A stretch of 14,018 nt of DNA from Pseudomonadota bacterium (GTDB lineage: Bacteria > Pseudomonadota > Alphaproteobacteria > Rhodobacterales > Rhodobacteraceae), in assembly GCA_038521775.1 (NCBI GenBank), contig JBCBKN010000082.1, positions 1-14,018 on the forward strand, read 5' to 3'. Positions 1 through 11,002 of this stretch are shown piece by piece. Position numbers and translations under genes: made by a program. Within the stretch, counting starts at the first letter, position 1, and every line of letters starts with the position of its first letter. Below the pieces are notes generated by a model. It did not search any database and had not been told where the DNA came from. It saw only the letters and a list, made by a program, of their open reading frames with translations.

Positions 1-27
1 GGCAAATCTGCTCCCGCCGCGGCGGGG

Positions 28-471
28 TCAGTCCTTGCGGAAGAACTTCTTTTCGCGCGGTTGTCCGTCCCAGCCGGTTTTCTGACGAGGACGGTCCTCG
101 CCGCCGCCGCCACCGCCGGCCGCACCGTCGCGCCCGCCCCGATCATGCGCCCGCCCATCGCTTGAGCGCCCATCATGTGAGCGGCCATCGCGGCCGCGCG
201 CACCGCCATGGGCCCGCAAACCGCCATCGCCCCGCGGCGGCCGGCCGCTGCTGCCCGCGCCGTGATCCTCGCGCACTTCCCATTTTTTCAGAAGACGGGC
301 GTCGAACCGGTCGCGGCCGATCTGCCCTTCATGGCACCAGATCGTCGAGACGATCGTGCCCGTCGCGGTGCTGGGGTCTGCCGCATCGCCGGTGATTTCC
401 ACCGCTTCCACCGCCATGCGCATGGAACCGGCCGTGAGGACCACAAGATCCCCAACCTCATATTTCGTCAT
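28..471 (-). CDS. DUF2158 (YodC-like) small domain protein with a C-terminal Arg/Gly/Asp-rich low-complexity extension (about 148 aa)
   Basis: ORF 28..636(-) trimmed to the internal ATG at 469-471 (MTKYEVGDLVVLTAGSMRMAVEAV...WCHEGQIGRDRFDARLLKKWE is the DUF2158 signature). AAGG sits about 10 nt upstream and a TTGCAT-N17-TATAGA promoter lies just 5'. The tail GRDGRSHDGRSSDGRAHDRGGRDGAAGGGGGG is encoded by imperfect gcccatc-type nucleotide repeats at 100-240. Stop TGA at 28-30. Confidence 0.6.
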   Translation of the reverse strand: MTKYEVGDLVVLTAGSMRMAVEAVEITGDAADPSTATGTIVSTIWCHEGQIGRDRFDARLLKKWEVREDHGAGSSGRPPRGDGGLRAHGGARGRDGRSHDGRSSDGRAHDRGGRDGAAGGGGGGEDRPRQKTGWDGQPREKKFFRKD

Positions 472-537
472 CCGTAACGTACCTTTCTGTCGCGGCCTGT
501 AACCGCTTTCGGTCCCGGGCTCAGCCCCGGGAGGGTC

Positions 538-566
538 TCTATATGGGGTCGCTTGGGAGGATGCAA
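538..566 (-). promoter_or_regulatory. Putative sigma70-type promoter (minus-strand -35 TTGCAT, 17 bp spacer, -10 TATAGA) for the DUF2158 gene
   Basis: Reverse complement of 561-566 is TTGCAT and of 538-543 is TATAGA, with an exact 17 bp spacer. It lies about 65 nt upstream of the ATG at 471. A GC palindrome (cccgggctcagccccggg, about 505-525) sits in the predicted 5' UTR. Confidence 0.35.
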
Positions 567-577
567 AGGCCAAATGT

Positions 578-611
578 TGCAAAAATGCCCCGCCCAGGGG
601 ACAGGCGGGGC
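578..611 (-). terminator. Rho-independent terminator on the minus strand (8 bp GC stem GCCCCGCC/GGCGGGGC, 9 nt loop, then AUUUUUGC)
   Basis: Plus strand 578-611 is gcaaaaat-gccccgcc-caggggaca-ggcggggc. Read on the minus strand this is a perfect GC hairpin followed by a U-tract. No CDS ends immediately upstream of it. Confidence 0.6.
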
Positions 612-1048
612 AAGTCGAGCGCGCGAGAAGCAACATTACGGGCGCGCGCCGGTCAAGGCCGCTTGGTCAGGGTCTGCACCATATCGGGTGCGCCCGACCA
701 GCGCGGAAGCACGGGAGAGGCTGAACCGGCCCCGGAGCGTTTGTTCACAGCGCCAGGAGGTTGCGCGGGCCCGGTCGGGTGGCAGCGAGAACCGTCTGGG
801 CAATACGCCTGCCCGTCATGACACGGACGGTGACATCCGAACCGCTGTCGTGAACATTGACAGATGTGCGGCCGTCCAGAGCTTTGAGCTTGTGGATATC
901 TAGGCCTCGGATGCAGTCGCCGAGAAATAAAGCGCTGCGGCCTGCTGAAAACTAATTGCGCATGCCACCCTCCTCTTCTTGAGGGGTTGGAGTAAGCGGT
1001 TCGCGCAGGCCGCACAACTTACGAATGCTGAAATATTTGGGGCTGAAA

Positions 1049-1077
1049 CGGCCCCGCCCGCCAATGCGGGCGGAGCC
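1049..1077 (-). terminator. GC hairpin (ccgcccgc / gcgggcgg) just downstream of the SPFH gene stop; weak terminator candidate (no clean U-tract)
   Basis: cggccccgcccgccaatgcgggcggagcc lies 18-45 nt 3' of the minus-strand stop at 1095. On the minus strand the flanking sequence is GUUUCAG rather than a U-run. Confidence 0.3.
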
Positions 1078-1094
1078 TTGTCAGTGCATGCAGC

Positions 1095-2237
1095 TCAGTC
1101 GCGCAGGCGCACCAGGTCGCTGAGCAGCCCGCCGGTCCCGCTATGGACCGTGAGCGTGCCGATCTTGCCGGCCAGGCCTTCGAGCGCCTCAAGCTCCTTG
1201 AGCCGCAGCATCACCGGGTTCTCCTCCATCACCTTGGCGGTGTTGAGGAGCGAGCGGGTCGCGTTGGTCTCCTCGCGCCGGCGGATGACATTGGCCTCGG
1301 CCTCCTTCTGCGCCTCGACCACGCGGGTCAGGATCTCGCGCATCTCGCCGGGCAGGATCACGTCCTTGAGCGCGATCTCGCCCAGCTCGAGCCCGAGCTG
1401 TGCCATCTCGACCCGCACCTTTTCGGCCGCCTCCGCATCGACCGACACCTTGTCGGCCAGAAGCTGGTCGAGCGTGAGCGCGCCCAGCGTCTTGCGGAAC
1501 GCAAATTGCAGCGCCCGGTGCAAGGCTTCCTTGAAGTCATGCACCGCCGTCACAGCCTGCACCGGATCGGTCACCCGGTATTCGGCGGCCAGGTTCACCC
1601 GCAGCGGCACCCGGTCACGGGTCAGGATCTCCTGCCCCGTGACGTCGATCGACCGCCAGCGCAGATCGACAATGCGCAGTTCGACCGTCACCCCGGTCGC
1701 CCAGAAGCGGTGGGTCCCCGGTTCGAGCAGCTGTGCGCTTCCCCCATCGATGGAGAGAAGCCCCGCATGGCCGTCGGGCACCCGATGCTCGGTGAACCAG
1801 TTTTCGGAGGCACCCTTGGACATGCGCTTTGCCAGCGCGGGCGAGATCGCAAGATCGGCCGACACGTCGAAGCGTTCGACCTCCCAGGGCCCAGCATCGC
1901 GCAGGTAAAGCACCTTGGTGTTGGGCTGCATCGCCTGCCAGGGGCGCCCATCGCGCATCACCATCGCCACCTCGCCGGGCCCGGTGCGCACCTCCGTCAC
2001 CAGTATCGCCGCCAGATCGGGACGGTCGCGCATCAACGCATCGGCATTGTCCGACGAAAAGAAGCTGCGATTGAGATTGTGCCATTCCAGGACGACATTG
2101 CTGCGCGGTATCGCATGGGACCCTGGGCCCAAAACGTCGTGAAACTCACCGTAATGCAGCACCAGAACGCGCTGGTTGGGGGTGACCGTGATGCGCTGAA
2201 CATCGCGGATCCAATCGAAAAGATGTGTCAGACCCAT
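1095..2237 (-). CDS. SPFH/band 7 (stomatin/prohibitin/HflK-C superfamily) domain protein, 380 aa, with a roughly 130 aa insertion near the N-terminus and no predicted TM segment
   Basis: The C-terminal two thirds matches the band-7 core: ILTRDRVPLRVNLAAEYRVTDPVQAV...ALQFAFRKTLGALTLDQLL...IALKDVILPGEMREILTRVVEAQKEAEANVIRRREE. The N-terminal RITVTPNQRVLVLHYGEFHDVLGPGSHAIP resembles the first SPFH strand. A GGAGA RBS lies 10-13 nt upstream of the ATG at 2237. Confidence 0.85.
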   Translation of the reverse strand: MGLTHLFDWIRDVQRITVTPNQRVLVLHYGEFHDVLGPGSHAIPRSNVVLEWHNLNRSFFSSDNADALMRDRPDLAAILVTEVRTGPGEVAMVMRDGRPWQAMQPNTKVLYLRDAGPWEVERFDVSADLAISPALAKRMSKGASENWFTEHRVPDGHAGLLSIDGGSAQLLEPGTHRFWATGVTVELRIVDLRWRSIDVTGQEILTRDRVPLRVNLAAEYRVTDPVQAVTAVHDFKEALHRALQFAFRKTLGALTLDQLLADKVSVDAEAAEKVRVEMAQLGLELGEIALKDVILPGEMREILTRVVEAQKEAEANVIRRREETNATRSLLNTAKVMEENPVMLRLKELEALEGLAGKIGTLTVHSGTGGLLSDLVRLRD

Positions 2238-2626
2238 GGCAAAATCTCCTATCTCCGTCGGTCTACCTATCGTCGTCGCAAGACGCTCTCCTCTGGGTGG
2301 GCGCTGTGCCCGGTGCGGCCCCTGCGGGCCGGTGATTTCCCCTGCCGGGGAAGGTGGAAAAGGCCCCGAAGCCGGCGGACCGGACCAAGGGCGGATCGGC
2401 GGCGAGCGGGCAGGGCGTCTGCCAGGCGCGGCGCGGGCGGGTCCGAAGACGCGTCCTTGCCTGGCCGGGCAGGGCCGGTGCCGTCATCCGCGACCGGCCA
2501 CTGGCCTGGGCGCGTGCCTGTGCGCCGCCCCCGCCCGAAGGCCGGTTTGGCGCGCCGGCCCGTGCAGGCCGGCTTCGGAAACCCCATTCTGTCGCCACAT
2601 CCAATCGTGTGGTGCCCTCTGAGGGG

Positions 2627-2700
2627 CGGAGGCAAGGAGAGGAGTCGAACCTCTAACCAGCTGGCTTGCGCCAAATGCTCTACCATTGAGCTACGTTGCC
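2627..2700 (-). tRNA. tRNA-like gene with canonical acceptor, D and T arms but a non-canonical anticodon region; possible pseudo-tRNA or tRNA-like element, anticodon not assignable
   Basis: Minus-strand read: GGCAACG-TA-GCTC-AATGGTA-GAGC-AT-TTGGC-GCAA-GCCAG-CTGGTT-AGAGG-TTCGACT-CCTCT-CCTTGCC-T-CCG. The D arm (GCTC/GAGC), T arm (AGAGG/CCTCT with a TTCGACT loop) and 7 bp acceptor stem (one C-C mismatch) are intact. No register gives a 5 bp stem with a 7 nt loop carrying U33. Instead a 5 bp stem capped by the GNRA tetraloop GCAA forms. Confidence 0.5.
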
Positions 2701-2703
2701 GAA

Positions 2704-2720
2704 CCGTTTTGGAAAAACGG
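2704..2720 (-). promoter_or_regulatory. Perfect hairpin ccgtttt-gga-aaaacgg, 3 nt 5' of the tRNA-like gene and about 190 nt 3' of the sulfatase stop; possible operon terminator or tRNA leader structure
   Basis: 7 bp stem with a 3 nt loop seen directly in the sequence. It contains an internal U-tract but is not followed by a U-run (UUC then the tRNA 5' end). Confidence 0.25.
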
Positions 2721-2907
2721 AGCATCCGCTTGCGCAAGACCCCAGGCATACGGTCCCGGCAGGGCCGGGGCGCACCGGCGGAGTGTGGACCTCCGGCCAT
2801 ATGGGTGACCTGCGAAAGTGCGGAGCGGCGGGGTAACCGCATCGCCCCATTTTCGCCAAACTGTTTCTGCGCCGCGGCTGTGCCGGGCTGGACCTGTTGC
2901 AGATATG

Positions 2908-4449
2908 CTACGCCATGCCGGAGGGGTGCGGAGCCCTGTCGACTGCGGCCATCTCGGCACGCGCCAGCGCCTCCATCAGCTCGGCCCGCATCGCCATGTG
3001 GTCCGGATCGTCCCAAAGATTGCGGAACTCGCCGGGATCGGTTTGCAGATCGTAAAGCTCGCCCCAGCTCAGCCCGTGAAAAAGCGTCAGGCGCCAGCGC
3101 GCCGTGCGCAGGCTGTGCACCCGTGGCGCGCGGCCCAGCGCGGGCATGTCGCGCTGGTTGTCAAACTGGATGAAGGCCGCGTCACGGCCGGTTGCAAGCA
3201 GATCCTGCCCCTGCACGCCGAGGGCTGCTTCGATTCGCGCGCGCTCGAGAATCGTCGGGCCGATATCGTGGGTCTGGCCGATGGCACCGGTCCGGCCCGT
3301 GGTCGGCCGTTCCGGATCCGCCCAGATGAAGGGCACCCGGGTGAGCTGCTCATACTGCTCGGCGCCTTTCAGCAGCAGACGGTGATCGCCCAGATGATCG
3401 CCGTGATCGGAGGTGAAGACCGTCACCGCCTCGGCCGCCTTGGGGGCCGTGCGCACCTGCCCGACCGCATCGTCGATCATGCCGATCATCCCGCAGGTCA
3501 GTGCCCGCGCCTCCTGCGCCTCGCGCGCGCTCACCGCAATCGTGCCCATGCCGCCAAGTGCGGCCTCGCCCGCGGCACGCTGGGCGATCATGCCGGCCAC
3601 ATGCGGCGGCGGCGTCCAGTCATTGACCGAAAACGCCTCGGGCACCGCCATCTCCTCGGGCCGGTAAAGGTCCCAATAGCGCCCGGGCGGGTTGAAGGGA
3701 TGGTGCGGGTCGGGGAGGGAGACCATCAGAAAGAAGGGCTGATCGCCGGTCTGGCCGCGCAGCCAGGCCTCGGCCCGGTCGGCGATATAGCGGGTGACGT
3801 AGAGCTCCTCGGGCAGGGCGGTGCGCACCGCCTGCGGGCAGATATAGTCATGCGGGATCTCGTTTTCGGCCCCCACAAGCTGGTCGGCCAGAGGCTCGCG
3901 CGCCAAAAGCCAGCTGCGGTAATCCCCGCCGCAGAAATCGCCATGGCCGGTGACCAGCTCGACATGGTCAAAGCCATAGAACGGGGTGCCGGGCGCGGCC
4001 TGACCGGGCGCCTCCTGCCGGTAGCCGGCATCATGCCCATGGCGCATCGCCTCGGCCAGATCGCCCGCGGCGCGATGATAGCCAGGGCGCGTCTGCGGCG
4101 GTTGCAGGATGGCCGGCCGGCCGGTGAAGTTCTGCAGATGGCTTTTGCCGATCAGCGCCGTGCGATAGCCCGCATCGCGCAGCAGCTCCACAAAGGTGAC
4201 ATGCCGTGTGTCGAGCGGAATGCCATTGGAGCGCACCCCGTGGCTTGAGGGCAGGCGCGCGGTCATCAGGCTGGCCCGGTTGGGCATGCAGACCGGGCTT
4301 GCCACATAGAACCGGTCCCAGACGGTGCCGGCCGCGGCGATGGTGTCGATATTGGGGGTGCGCAGCACCGGATGCCCCATACAGCCCAGATAATCGGCGC
4401 GATGCTGGTCAGTGATGAAGAGAATGAAACTCGGCCGGCGATCGGTCAC
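2908..4449 (-). CDS. Sulfatase family protein (Cys-type, C-x-P-x-R motif CMPNR), about 513 aa, with no signal peptide
   Basis: ORF 2908..4635(-) trimmed to GTG at 4447-4449, which has a GAGGA RBS 7 nt upstream and overlaps the upstream gene's TGA stop (ctGTGAcc). The N-terminus PSFILFITDQHRADYLGCMGHPVLRTPNIDTIAAAG...ASPVCMPNRASLMTAR...LIGKSHL is the classic sulfatase N-terminal domain with a formylglycine-target motif. Confidence 0.85.
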   Translation of the reverse strand: MTDRRPSFILFITDQHRADYLGCMGHPVLRTPNIDTIAAAGTVWDRFYVASPVCMPNRASLMTARLPSSHGVRSNGIPLDTRHVTFVELLRDAGYRTALIGKSHLQNFTGRPAILQPPQTRPGYHRAAGDLAEAMRHGHDAGYRQEAPGQAAPGTPFYGFDHVELVTGHGDFCGGDYRSWLLAREPLADQLVGAENEIPHDYICPQAVRTALPEELYVTRYIADRAEAWLRGQTGDQPFFLMVSLPDPHHPFNPPGRYWDLYRPEEMAVPEAFSVNDWTPPPHVAGMIAQRAAGEAALGGMGTIAVSAREAQEARALTCGMIGMIDDAVGQVRTAPKAAEAVTVFTSDHGDHLGDHRLLLKGAEQYEQLTRVPFIWADPERPTTGRTGAIGQTHDIGPTILERARIEAALGVQGQDLLATGRDAAFIQFDNQRDMPALGRAPRVHSLRTARWRLTLFHGLSWGELYDLQTDPGEFRNLWDDPDHMAMRAELMEALARAEMAAVDRAPHPSGMA

Positions 4450-5594: not shown

Positions 5595-5894
5595 TTAATC
5601 ATCGCCGCCGTCACTGTCACTGTCACTGTCGGAGTCGCGATCGTCCCGGTCATCCCTGTCGTCGCGATCATCCTTGTCGTCCCTGTCGTCGCGATCATCG
5701 CGGTCGTCCCGATCATCGCGGTCATCCCGATCGTCGCGGTCCAGCAGCCCGACGGTGTTTTTGGCAGCGGTGTCGAGCGTGTGACCGATCCGGCTGAAAA
5801 GGCCCGCAATGCCGGTCTCATCCGACGCGGCCGGGGTTGCGAGCGGGGCGAGCAGCACGGCCAGGGCCAGGGCTGGGAGTTTGAGCTGGGTCAT
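5595..5894 (-). CDS. Small secreted protein (99 aa) with about 11 tandem DRDD tetrapeptide repeats and a C-terminal DSDSDSDSDGGDD
   Basis: Signal peptide MTQLKLPALALAVLLAPLATPAAS, a 30 aa unique segment, then (DRDD)n with one DKDD variant. The AGGACAAGGACG RBS region lies upstream of the ATG at 5892-5894. The underlying DNA is a 12-nt-unit tandem repeat plus (gtcact)3. Confidence 0.7.
   Translation of the reverse strand: MTQLKLPALALAVLLAPLATPAASDETGIAGLFSRIGHTLDTAAKNTVGLLDRDDRDDRDDRDDRDDRDDRDDKDDRDDRDDRDDRDSDSDSDSDGGDD

Positions 5895-9316: not shown

Positions 9317-11002
<1,686 letters not shown>

What the first reader, a model, noticed from the sequence alone, without database searches (positions are those of the whole stretch)
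578..1094. Strong orphan intrinsic terminator implies an unannotated minus-strand transcript (sRNA or long 3' UTR) with a low-GC core
A textbook terminator sits at 578-611 on the minus strand: an 8 bp GC stem followed by UUUUU. No credible CDS ends upstream of it. The only ORFs there have low GC3 (about 55-70% against about 85-90% for the real genes) and Arg-rich junk composition. The SPFH gene already has its own, weaker, hairpin at 1049-1077. So 612 to about 1050 is probably transcribed as a non-coding RNA or an extended, possibly processed, 3' UTR. Within it, 880-1030 is distinctly AT-richer than the surroundings. It contains a GA-rich hairpin whose loop region reads AGGAGG-N5-ATG followed by a stop after three codons (M-R-N-stop).
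Basis: partly seen in the sequence, partly recalled or inferred. Interest (0 to 1): 0.5.

Follow-up and report, generated by a model that had tools for sequence, protein, structure and literature searches.

The report
Conserved terminator ending a decaying spacer
A real, well-conserved transcription stop signal sits after a roughly 440-base, lineage-specific stretch of non-coding DNA behind an SPFH gene. That stretch behaves like a decaying leftover or untranslated mRNA tail, not like a conserved small-RNA gene, so the finding is ordinary.

Summary
A strong minus-strand intrinsic terminator lies at 612-581. It is the only site of that quality in the 14-kb window, none appeared in 300 shuffles, and it is 100% identical in the only sister lineage found.

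The sequence between it and the SPFH gene (about 1048-655) does not behave like an sRNA gene.
- It occurs only in this MAG population and one sister MAG (L038). The two next-closest relatives lack it: there the SPFH hairpin lies 78-149 nt from the next gene.
- Its core is the fastest-diverging segment locally: 76% identity plus eight mostly non-3n indels. This matches the 74-84% seen at four-fold synonymous sites.
- It has no Rfam family, no conserved ORF, no protein homologue and no codon periodicity.
- It has no recognisable promoter, no excess folding (z about -1.4) and no covariation beyond a shuffled control.

The AGGAGG-N5-ATG is real, but a stop follows after 3 codons here and after 5 in the sister.

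Best reading: SPFH transcription passes its own hairpin, which has no U tract. It runs through a dead, probably foreign, insert as an untranslated tail. It stops at the conserved terminator about 15 nt upstream of the next gene's promoter. A short sRNA cut from the 3' end cannot be excluded. Interest is low.

The parts
581..612 (-). Rho-independent terminator: stem-loop 612-586 (UGCCCCGCCUGUCCCCUGGGCGGGGCA) plus U5 tract 585-581
   Evidence: The pattern scan finds it. MFE is -21.2 kcal/mol, z -3.46. It is the only stringent hit in the window and none occurred in 300 shuffles. It lies within a 50-nt run that is 100% identical to L038, against about 79% neutral identity.
613..654 (-). Second G+C hairpin (GGCGCGCG...CGCGCGCU) just upstream of the terminator. 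With the terminator it forms a two-hairpin 3' module
   Evidence: Fold is -16.5 kcal/mol but z is only -0.28. Identity to L038 is 88%. This module causes the sub-threshold Atu_C7 hit of 24 bits against a gathering score of 45.
655..1048 (-). Lineage-specific non-coding core (an insert or a gene remnant), lower in GC at its 5' end
   Evidence: Present in the window, in the identical L041 contig, and in L038. Absent from L039 and L040. Identity to L038 is 76% plus 20 gap columns, the least conserved segment of 2.5 kb. There is no codon periodicity, no homologues, fold z of -1.46 and -1.44, and no covariation above the control.
952..974 (-). AGGAGG (974-969), N5, ATG (963-961), then CGC AAT TAG (stop at 954-952). 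It is partly sequestered in a small GA-rich hairpin
   Evidence: Read directly from the sequence. SD and ATG are identical in L038, but there the mini-ORF is M-Q-T-Y-F-stop and a 1-nt indel follows. The hairpin folds at -14.2 (window) and -13.4 (L038) kcal/mol, with z of -1.5 and -3.0.
1050..1077 (-). SPFH-proximal 12-bp G+C hairpin without a U tract
   Evidence: MFE is -30 kcal/mol, z -4.77. Three of the four stem substitutions relative to L038 are GC<->GU changes that keep the pair. The tail is GUUUCAG in the window and UACCUUCG in L038.
1095..2237 (-). SPFH/slipin gene (380 aa), the upstream transcription unit
   Evidence: Pfam Band_7, E = 2.7e-31. Sources name it a slipin family protein.
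538..566 (-). Promoter-like site of the downstream gene: TTGCAT (566-561), N17, TATAGA (543-538), about 15 nt downstream of the terminator's U tract
   Evidence: It is one of only two promoter-like sites (at least 7 of 12 matches) at the same alignment column in the window and L038; the other, TTTTCA/TTTTTA-N16-TATTTC/TATTAC at 951, is weak (7 of 12, no T at the last position of the -10). L039 and L040 carry the equivalent CCCTATATG motif.
28..471 (-). Downstream 147-aa gene (YodC/DUF2158-like according to JGI names for homologues)
   Evidence: ORF and translation. Homologues. It is 92.5% identical at the protein level to its L038 counterpart.

Best explanation
The hairpin plus U5 at 612-581 (minus strand) is a genuine, selectively maintained Rho-independent terminator. 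It marks the end of the SPFH transcription unit, not the end of a conserved sRNA gene.

In this lineage about 440 nt of extra DNA lies between the SPFH gene's own hairpin (1077-1050) and this terminator. That hairpin has no U tract. The extra DNA is either an insertion or the remnant of a small, probably foreign, gene. Its Shine-Dalgarno and ATG survive at 974-961.

Proposed mechanism:
1. RNA polymerase leaving the SPFH gene is not stopped efficiently at the U-less hairpin.
2. It transcribes the dead segment as an untranslated tail.
3. It is released at the strong terminator about 15 nt upstream of the -35 of the next gene's promoter. This shields that promoter from read-through.

Shown: the terminator's strength, rarity and conservation; the lineage-specific presence of the core; its neutral-rate decay with no coding, family or structure signal.

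Inferred: read-through of the first hairpin, the insulation role, and the dead-gene origin.
For: Terminator:
- It is unique in the window, with none in 300 shuffles, and has strong fold energy.
- It lies in a 50-nt block 100% identical to L038. Four-fold degenerate sites in the flanking genes are 84% and 74% identical.

Lineage-specific core:
- L038 (SPFH 82% aa) has the same spacer of about 620 nt.
- L039 and L040 (SPFH 74-75% aa, same SPFH / DUF2158-like / DUF1877 order) have only 78 and 149 nt. There the order is stop codon, hairpin with CUUCGCUUUU(U), CTATAT promoter, next gene.

Neutral decay:
- The core is 76% identical plus 20 gap columns from eight indels (-1, +6, +4, +1, +1, +1, -1, -1).
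- The other intergenic region is 90% identical, the SPFH gene 86% and the next gene 90%.
- Mismatches by codon position are 12/10/9 and 10/9/9.

No coding or RNA family:
- The 68-codon frame has no homologue among 5.8 billion or 1.8 billion proteins (the only hit is a spurious eukaryotic repeat protein).
- Six-frame Pfam and NCBIfam scans are empty.
- Rfam finds nothing at gathering score.

No structure signal:
- Core fold z is -1.46 and -1.44.
- RNAalifold finds 7 compensatory pairs, but column-shuffled alignments give 6.5 +/- 1.9 and 54 of 100 reach 7.

No internal promoter better than 7 of 12 matches is shared by both sequences.

The first hairpin keeps its pairing through GC<->GU changes but has no U tract in either genome.

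The slot after SPFH is variable. L042 and L043 carry unrelated orphan genes of 188 and 191 aa there; the L042 gene has GC3 of 0.41.
Against: - There is no transcript data, so read-through of the first hairpin is inferred only from the missing U tract.
- Canonical terminators are rare in this window, so U-less hairpins or Rho may terminate here.
- The tail is C-rich over G on the transcribed strand (plus-strand GC skew +0.1 to +0.22 at 600-800). That is a plausible Rho entry site, so Rho could stop transcription before the terminator.
- Only two independent sequences exist, about 20% diverged, so weak constraint on the core cannot be excluded.
- The 5' block 1030-960 is 87% identical and the 3' block 700-575 is 82-100% identical.
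- The perfect 50-nt block could reflect a recently recombined segment rather than selection.
- Which of the two hairpins is orthologous to the terminator of L039/L040 is ambiguous (alignment scores 21 against 19; MAFFT chose the distal one).
Confidence: 0.55

Rival explanations
1. A short 3'-end-derived sRNA. The conserved 3' module of roughly 700-581 has a single-stranded stretch, then the GC hairpin 654-613, then the terminator. It would be released from the SPFH tail by endonucleolytic processing, or made from a weak internal promoter, and act as a trans-acting regulator. UTR-derived sRNAs of this type are described in Rhodobacter sphaeroides and enterobacteria.
For: - The 3' 120 nt are more conserved than the core: 87%, 82% and 100% in 40-nt windows.
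- The two-hairpin-plus-U-tail architecture gives the best, though sub-threshold, hits to sRNA models in both genomes. Atu_C7 scores 24.3 and 23.9 bits, with E of 0.0017 to 0.0006 for the small search space.
- UTR-derived sRNAs that share the parent mRNA's terminator are well documented (PMC8625941, PMC7398697, PMC7038943).
Against: - The scores are about half the gathering score of 45 and are carried by the generic terminator stem (alignments).
- Hairpin 654-613 has fold z of -0.28.
- No conserved promoter is present.
- Substitutions in the putative single-stranded part (A/G, A/G, A/C, CC/UU) show no obvious protected seed.
- Conservation of 82-87% over 80 nt is not significantly above the neutral 74-84%.
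Confidence: 0.17
2. An independent long non-coding RNA gene of about 450 nt. Its own promoter would lie in the AT-richer 1045-980 region and it would end at the terminator. The sequestered AGGAGG would act as a functional element, for example a ribosome or anti-SD decoy, or the 3-5-codon mini-ORF would be translated.
For: - The 5' block 1030-960 is 87% identical and contains a 24-of-25 identical run, CCUCAAGAAGAGGAGGnUGGCAUGC.
- The small hairpin around the SD folds in both genomes.
- Whole-spacer fold z is -3.05 and -2.49.
Against: - The whole-spacer z-scores come from the terminal hairpins; the core gives -1.4.
- By my own estimate, runs of 16 or more identical bases are expected by chance at about 80% identity over 440 nt.
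- No sigma-70-like site lies in 1045-980.
- The exact 23-nt SD block is absent from the metagenome and viral collections.
- The core is the fastest-evolving local segment, with eight indels.
- The mini-ORF differs in both length and sequence (MRN* against MQTYF*).
Confidence: 0.08
3. A live small protein gene of 72 codons (963-745). The TAG at codon 4 would be an assembly error or would be read through.
For: - A strong SD sits at ideal spacing from the ATG.
- After the TAG, 68 sense codons follow in the same frame.
- GC by codon position is 0.63/0.51/0.66, which is faintly coding-like.
Against: - An independent assembly (L041, Logan SRR22824295) has the identical sequence including the TAG.
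- In L038 the frame is broken by a 1-nt indel, a different stop and a 4-nt indel.
- Amino-acid identity in the shared frame is about 45%, which is what 75% nucleotide identity gives without selection (my count).
- Mismatches show no periodicity.
- There are no homologues and no family.
Confidence: 0.03
4. A non-autonomous mobile element or site-specific insertion that targeted the SPFH terminator and duplicated it. That would explain two similar hairpins, both with the 3' arm GGGCGGGGC, flanking the extra DNA.
For: - Both hairpins share GGGCGGGGC.
- The left junction of L038 and the right junction of the window align over 25 columns, from GGGCGGGGC to AACATTT.
- The segment is absent from L039 and L040.
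- The slot holds different cargo in L042 and L043.
Against: - The 9-mer occurs 3 times in the window against 1.3 expected, and 28 of 200 shuffles reach 3.
- The core has no terminal inverted repeats and no second copy in the window or in L038.
- No copies were found in the plasmid, phage, viral or metagenome collections.
- No recombinase is nearby.
Confidence: 0.07

Closest known systems
Canonical Rho-independent (intrinsic) terminator
   Same: It has a G+C-rich stem of 10-11 pairs, a short loop and an immediately following U5 tract. It is intergenic, on the same strand as the upstream gene, and is conserved in the sister lineage.
   Different: It lies about 480 nt beyond the stop codon of the nearest upstream gene, with a second U-less hairpin in between. 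No 3'-end data exist.
3' UTR-derived sRNAs that share the parent mRNA's terminator (Rhodobacter sphaeroides UTR-derived sRNAs, PMC8625941; OppZ/CarZ, PMC7398697; NarS, PMC7038943)
   Same: An untranslated region follows a protein gene and ends in a strong terminator preceded by another hairpin. The organism is a Rhodobacterales-like alphaproteobacterium.
   Different: Known examples show conserved seed regions and mapped RNase E sites. Here the UTR body drifts at the neutral rate and is absent from close relatives. No processing or seed can be shown.
Rfam RF02501 Atu_C7 (Rhizobiales sRNA)
   Same: It is the best-scoring Rfam model in both genomes. The alignment covers the GC hairpin plus the terminator, and the terminator stem sequence is similar (GCCCCGC...GCGGGGCUUUU).
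   Different: It scores 24 bits against a gathering score of 45. The 5' half of the model is not matched in the window and only loosely in L038. This is not a member.
Decayed gene remnant in a variable intergenic slot
   Same: SD and ATG are retained, followed by early stops that differ between lineages. Indels break the frame, divergence is at the neutral rate, and GC is lower than the genome. Unrelated orphan genes occupy the same slot in L042 and L043.
   Different: No intact homologue of the presumed gene was found anywhere. The dead-gene origin is therefore an inference, not a demonstration.

Membership tests
Rho-independent terminator | G+C-rich stem-loop (at least 5-8 pairs, loop 3-9 nt) | tested here: met
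   10-11 pairs, 8 of them G-C, with a loop of 5-7 nt. MFE is -21.2 kcal/mol.
Rho-independent terminator | U tract immediately 3' of the stem | tested here: met
   UUUUU lies at 585-581, directly after the closing pair.
Rho-independent terminator | More than chance, and conserved in relatives | tested here: met
   None of 300 shuffles of the window contains an equivalent site. A 50-nt block is 100% identical in L038.
Rho-independent terminator | Transcript 3' ends map to the U tract | not testable with these tools
   No transcriptome data are available for this uncultured MAG.
Rfam RF02501 Atu_C7 | Covariance-model score at or above the gathering score (45 bits) | tested here: not met
   24.3 bits in the window and 23.9 bits in L038.
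Independent trans-acting sRNA gene | Own promoter upstream of the RNA | tested here: not met
   The strict scan finds no site in 1-3000. The relaxed scan finds one weak site shared by both genomes, TTTTCA-N16-TATTTC at 951, scoring 7 of 12 with no T at the last -10 position. Only sigma-70-type consensus was tested.
Independent trans-acting sRNA gene | Sequence or structure conserved above the neutral rate, with covariation | tested here: not met
   The core is 76% identical plus indels, against 74-84% at four-fold sites. Seven compensatory pairs were found, against 6.5 +/- 1.9 in column shuffles. Power is low with two sequences.
3' UTR-derived sRNA | Co-transcription with the upstream mRNA and a shared terminator | not testable with these tools
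   This is inferred only from the missing U tract after hairpin 1077-1050.
3' UTR-derived sRNA | Conserved seed or processing site | tested here: inconclusive
   Region 700-613 is 82-87% identical to L038, which is not clearly above neutral. RNase E sites cannot be mapped.
Protein-coding gene | Uninterrupted ORF kept in relatives, codon-position substitution bias, homologues | tested here: not met
   TAG at codon 4 is confirmed by a second assembly. The frame is broken in L038. Mismatches show no periodicity. There are no homologues.
MITE / IS-type mobile element | Terminal inverted repeats, target-site duplication, multiple copies | tested here: not met
   No terminal inverted repeats and no second copy. 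The shared 9-mer in the flanking hairpins is not significant. No copies were found in the searched collections.

The most novel reading that the evidence does not exclude
The conserved 3' module (about 700-581) would be a young, lineage-specific regulatory sRNA. It would have been born from the tail of a dead, horizontally acquired gene and would be processed from the SPFH mRNA. That would make it an example of de novo sRNA origin from decaying cargo DNA. The retained, hairpin-sequestered SD and mini-ORF upstream would influence Rho access or tail stability.
Probability: 0.1. Interest if true: 0.45.

Novelty: new member of a known kind. Interest (0 to 1): 0.13.

Why it matters
It matters little beyond annotation. 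The result shows that a textbook terminator far from any stop codon need not mark a hidden RNA gene. Here comparative data explain it as the working terminator of the SPFH unit, separated from its gene by a lineage-specific, neutrally decaying segment. The locus also illustrates that the slot behind this SPFH gene turns over quickly: unrelated orphan genes, nothing at all, or a dead remnant, depending on the lineage. If the 3' module did prove to be a processed sRNA, it would be a small case study of sRNA birth from decaying DNA.

Tried and rejected
1. Rfam at gathering score on the whole window found only a tRNA. At E up to 10 on the spacer in both genomes, only sub-threshold generic sRNA 3'-end hits appeared.

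2. Coding hypotheses were all empty.
- Pfam and NCBIfam scans of the ORFs and of all six frames found nothing.
- The word-indexed search of 5.8 billion proteins found nothing.
- The full HMMER search of 1.8 billion representatives gave one hit, a eukaryotic cadherin-like repeat protein, which I judged spurious.
- I briefly considered a lipoprotein-like signal (LLSGC in L038), but the window has LGDC and the frame is not kept.

3. I tried several routes to find more copies.
- The genome collection via the SPFH protein gave a best hit of 61%, with no spacer similarity.
- An exact 23-nt SD-block pattern gave 0 hits in metagenome and viral contigs.
- A metagenome scan with the downstream protein gave 0.
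- Plasmid and phage blastn gave 0.
- Exact-protein look-ups found L038-L043. Only L038 is an independent copy; L041 is identical to the window.

4. I tested whether the orphan genes in the same slot in L042 and L043 are the intact ancestor of the spacer. There is no similarity, even between those two genes. The PADLOC defence models were also empty.

5. The idea of terminator duplication or a target-site duplication rests on a shared 9-mer that is not significant, and hairpin orthology is ambiguous.

6. I considered a riboswitch or attenuator for the downstream gene. It was rejected because that gene keeps its own promoter-like site and conserved 5' UTR downstream of the terminator, as in relatives without the spacer, and Rfam finds no cis-regulatory match.

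Full report
**1. Observation**

- On the minus strand, a stem-loop at 612-586 (UGCCCCGCCUGUCCCCUGGGCGGGGCA) is followed by UUUUU at 585-581. It folds at -21.2 kcal/mol, z = -3.46.
- I applied a stringent definition: at least 8 contiguous Watson-Crick pairs, at least 7 of them G-C, a loop of 3-9, and TTTTT within 2 nt. This is the only such site on either strand of the 14-kb window. None occurred in 300 dinucleotide-preserving shuffles.
- The SPFH gene (1095-2237, minus; Pfam Band_7, E = 2.7e-31) is followed by its own 12-bp hairpin at 1077-1050. That hairpin folds at -30 kcal/mol but its tail is GUUUCAGCC, so it has no U tract.
- GC falls to 0.53-0.56 across about 800-1050.
- AGGAGG (974-969), N5, ATG (963-961), CGC AAT TAG is exact.
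- One correction: GC3 of the real genes here is 0.69-0.85, not 85-90%. The local ORFs have 0.57-0.67.

**2. Context**

The gene downstream of the terminator (28-471, minus, 147 aa) belongs to a family that JGI labels YodC/DUF2158.

A promoter-like TTGCAT-N17-TATAGA lies at 566-538, about 15 nt beyond the U tract. It is one of only two promoter-like sites (at least 7 of 12 matches) found at the same alignment column in this window and its sister sequence; the other, at 951, is weak.

**3. Relatives**

- The window is an NCBI MAG contig (Pseudomonadota; its SPFH protein is P0001). The species-representative genome collection holds nothing closer than 61% SPFH identity, and those loci show no spacer similarity.
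- Exact-protein look-ups retrieved L038, a sister MAG with SPFH 82% identical at the protein level.
- They also retrieved L041, a 1,299-nt Logan contig identical to the window across the spacer, including the TAG.
- L039 and L040 have SPFH 74-75% identical.
- L038 has the same spacer of about 620 nt.
- L039 keeps the SPFH / DUF2158-like / DUF1877 gene order, and L040 shows the same first two genes. They have only 78 and 149 nt between the two genes. There the order is stop codon, G+C hairpin followed by CUUCGCUUUU(U), a CCCTATATG promoter motif, a conserved 5' UTR, then the gene.
- About 440-480 nt plus one extra hairpin are therefore specific to the window/L038 lineage.
- Which of the two hairpins is orthologous to the single hairpin of L039/L040 is ambiguous. 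Local alignment scores are 21 against 19, and MAFFT pairs it with the distal terminator.
- In more distant relatives, L042 and L043 (SPFH 61-64%), the same slot holds called orphan genes of 188 and 191 aa. These are unrelated to each other and to the spacer. The L042 gene has GC3 of 0.41.
- Whether the segment was inserted here or lost elsewhere cannot be decided. The slot clearly turns over.

**4. Is the spacer under selection?**

Window against L038:

| Segment | Identity |
|---|---|
| Four-fold degenerate sites, SPFH | 84% |
| Four-fold degenerate sites, downstream gene | 74% |
| SPFH gene | 86% |
| Downstream gene | 90% |
| Intergenic region upstream of SPFH (2588-2238) | 90% |
| Spacer core (1048-655) | 76%, plus 20 gap columns |
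| Two-hairpin 3' module (654-575) | 94% |

- The gap columns in the core come from eight indels of -1, +6, +4, +1, +1, +1, -1 and -1. The core is the least conserved segment of the 2.5 kb.
- The 3' module includes a 50-nt run with no difference. By my own arithmetic, such a run is expected about 0.002 times in 440 nt at 81% identity.
- The 5' block with the SD (1030-960) is 87% identical. That is not significantly above neutral, and runs of 16 identical bases are expected by chance at this divergence.

**5. Coding?**

- In the window, the ATG frame reads M-R-N-stop and then 68 open codons.
- In L038 it reads M-Q-T-Y-F-stop, then a 1-nt indel, then further 6-nt and 4-nt indels and a different stop.
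- Mismatches fall 12/10/9 and 10/9/9 on the three codon positions.
- Conceptual amino-acid identity in the shared frame is about 45%, as expected without selection.
- No homologue exists in the 5.8-billion-protein search.
- The exhaustive HMMER search found no true homologue. Its single hit is a 3,546-aa eukaryotic repeat protein, judged spurious.
- Six-frame Pfam and NCBIfam scans are empty.
- The 120-codon and 116-codon ORFs in other frames are Arg/Pro-rich and have non-coding GC patterns.
- L041 shows the TAG is not an assembly error.
- Nothing is coding now. A dead gene is a reasonable origin for the retained SD-ATG but is not demonstrated.

**6. Structured RNA?**

- Rfam has no hit at gathering score.
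- The best sub-threshold hit in both genomes is Atu_C7 at 24 bits against a gathering score of 45. It is carried by the GC hairpin plus the terminator.
- The whole-spacer fold z-scores of -3.05 and -2.49 collapse to -1.46 and -1.44 once the terminal hairpins are removed.
- RNAalifold on the two sequences predicts 128 pairs, 7 of them with compensatory changes. Column-shuffled versions of the same alignment give 6.5 +/- 1.9, and 54 of 100 reach 7. There is no covariation signal.
- The first hairpin (1077-1050) does keep its pairing: three of its four stem substitutions are GC<->GU changes.

**7. Mechanism**

- The most economical reading is that the 612-581 element is the functional terminator of the SPFH transcription unit.
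- In this lineage the gene-proximal hairpin lacks a U tract, so the strong U5 terminator does the stopping just before the next gene's promoter. The approximately 440 nt in between ride along as an untranslated, unconstrained tail.
- This step is inferred.
- Canonical terminators are rare in this window, so other termination modes must be common here.
- The tail is C-over-G rich on the transcribed strand, so Rho could act before the terminator.

**8. Rivals**

- A short processed or independently transcribed sRNA consisting of the conserved 3' module remains possible, at about 0.17. UTR-derived sRNAs of this type are described in PMC8625941, PMC7398697 and PMC7038943.
- A long non-coding RNA gene with its own promoter has probability of about 0.08.
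- A live 72-codon gene has probability of about 0.03.
- A mobile element that duplicated the terminator has probability of about 0.07. Its shared 9-mer is not significant, and there are no inverted repeats and no other copies.

**9. Verdict**

A transcript very likely ends here, and it is most likely the SPFH tail. An sRNA gene with a functional low-GC core is not supported. This is a new instance of known things: an intrinsic terminator plus a decaying lineage-specific intergenic segment. Interest is low.

Noticed in passing
window 2628-2700 (-); L038 5457-5611: A tRNA-like gene scores 48 bits with the Rfam tRNA model, but ARAGORN reports 'tRNA-???' with a two-base anticodon (ca). At the same slot between the sulfatase and SPFH genes, L038 has an 82-nt tRNA-Phe plus another 'tRNA-??? 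(tg)'. Window 2589-2894 does not align to L038 apart from 43 nt. These may be degenerate or unusual tRNA genes, or an integration scar.
   Followed up: partly
window 2238-2588: The intergenic region upstream of the SPFH gene is 75-80% G+C and 90% identical to L038, more conserved than the SPFH gene itself. No gene is called there in L038. It could be a long 5' leader or an unannotated feature.
   Followed up: no
L042 4230-4796; L043 4262-4837: The slot directly downstream of the SPFH gene holds unrelated orphan genes of 188 and 191 aa in more distant relatives. They have no Pfam or PADLOC match, and the L042 gene has GC3 of 0.41 in a 57% GC contig. The slot holds nothing in L039 and L040. This is a rapidly turning-over position.
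   Followed up: partly
window 1-27; L041 1273-1299: The 14-kb MAG contig and the independent 1,299-nt Logan contig both end exactly 27 nt after the stop codon of the 147-aa gene, whereas L038 continues into a DUF1877 gene. The shared assembly break suggests a repeat or strain-variable junction there.
   Followed up: no
window 5634-5741 and 9684-10926: There is a run of 9-nt tandem repeats (GTCGCGATC / ATCCCTGTC-like) at 5634-5741. There are also four diverged repeats with a 261-nt period at 9684-10926, inside a long ORF. I recall that period as typical of S1-domain repeats, but this was not tested.
   Followed up: no
window 1095-2237 (-): The SPFH/slipin protein is 82% identical to its L038 orthologue at the protein level, although four-fold synonymous sites are 84% identical. 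Divergence is concentrated in the N-terminal roughly 150 residues, where some 40-nt windows fall to 52-70%. This suggests relaxed or diversifying selection on the N-terminal extension.
   Followed up: no
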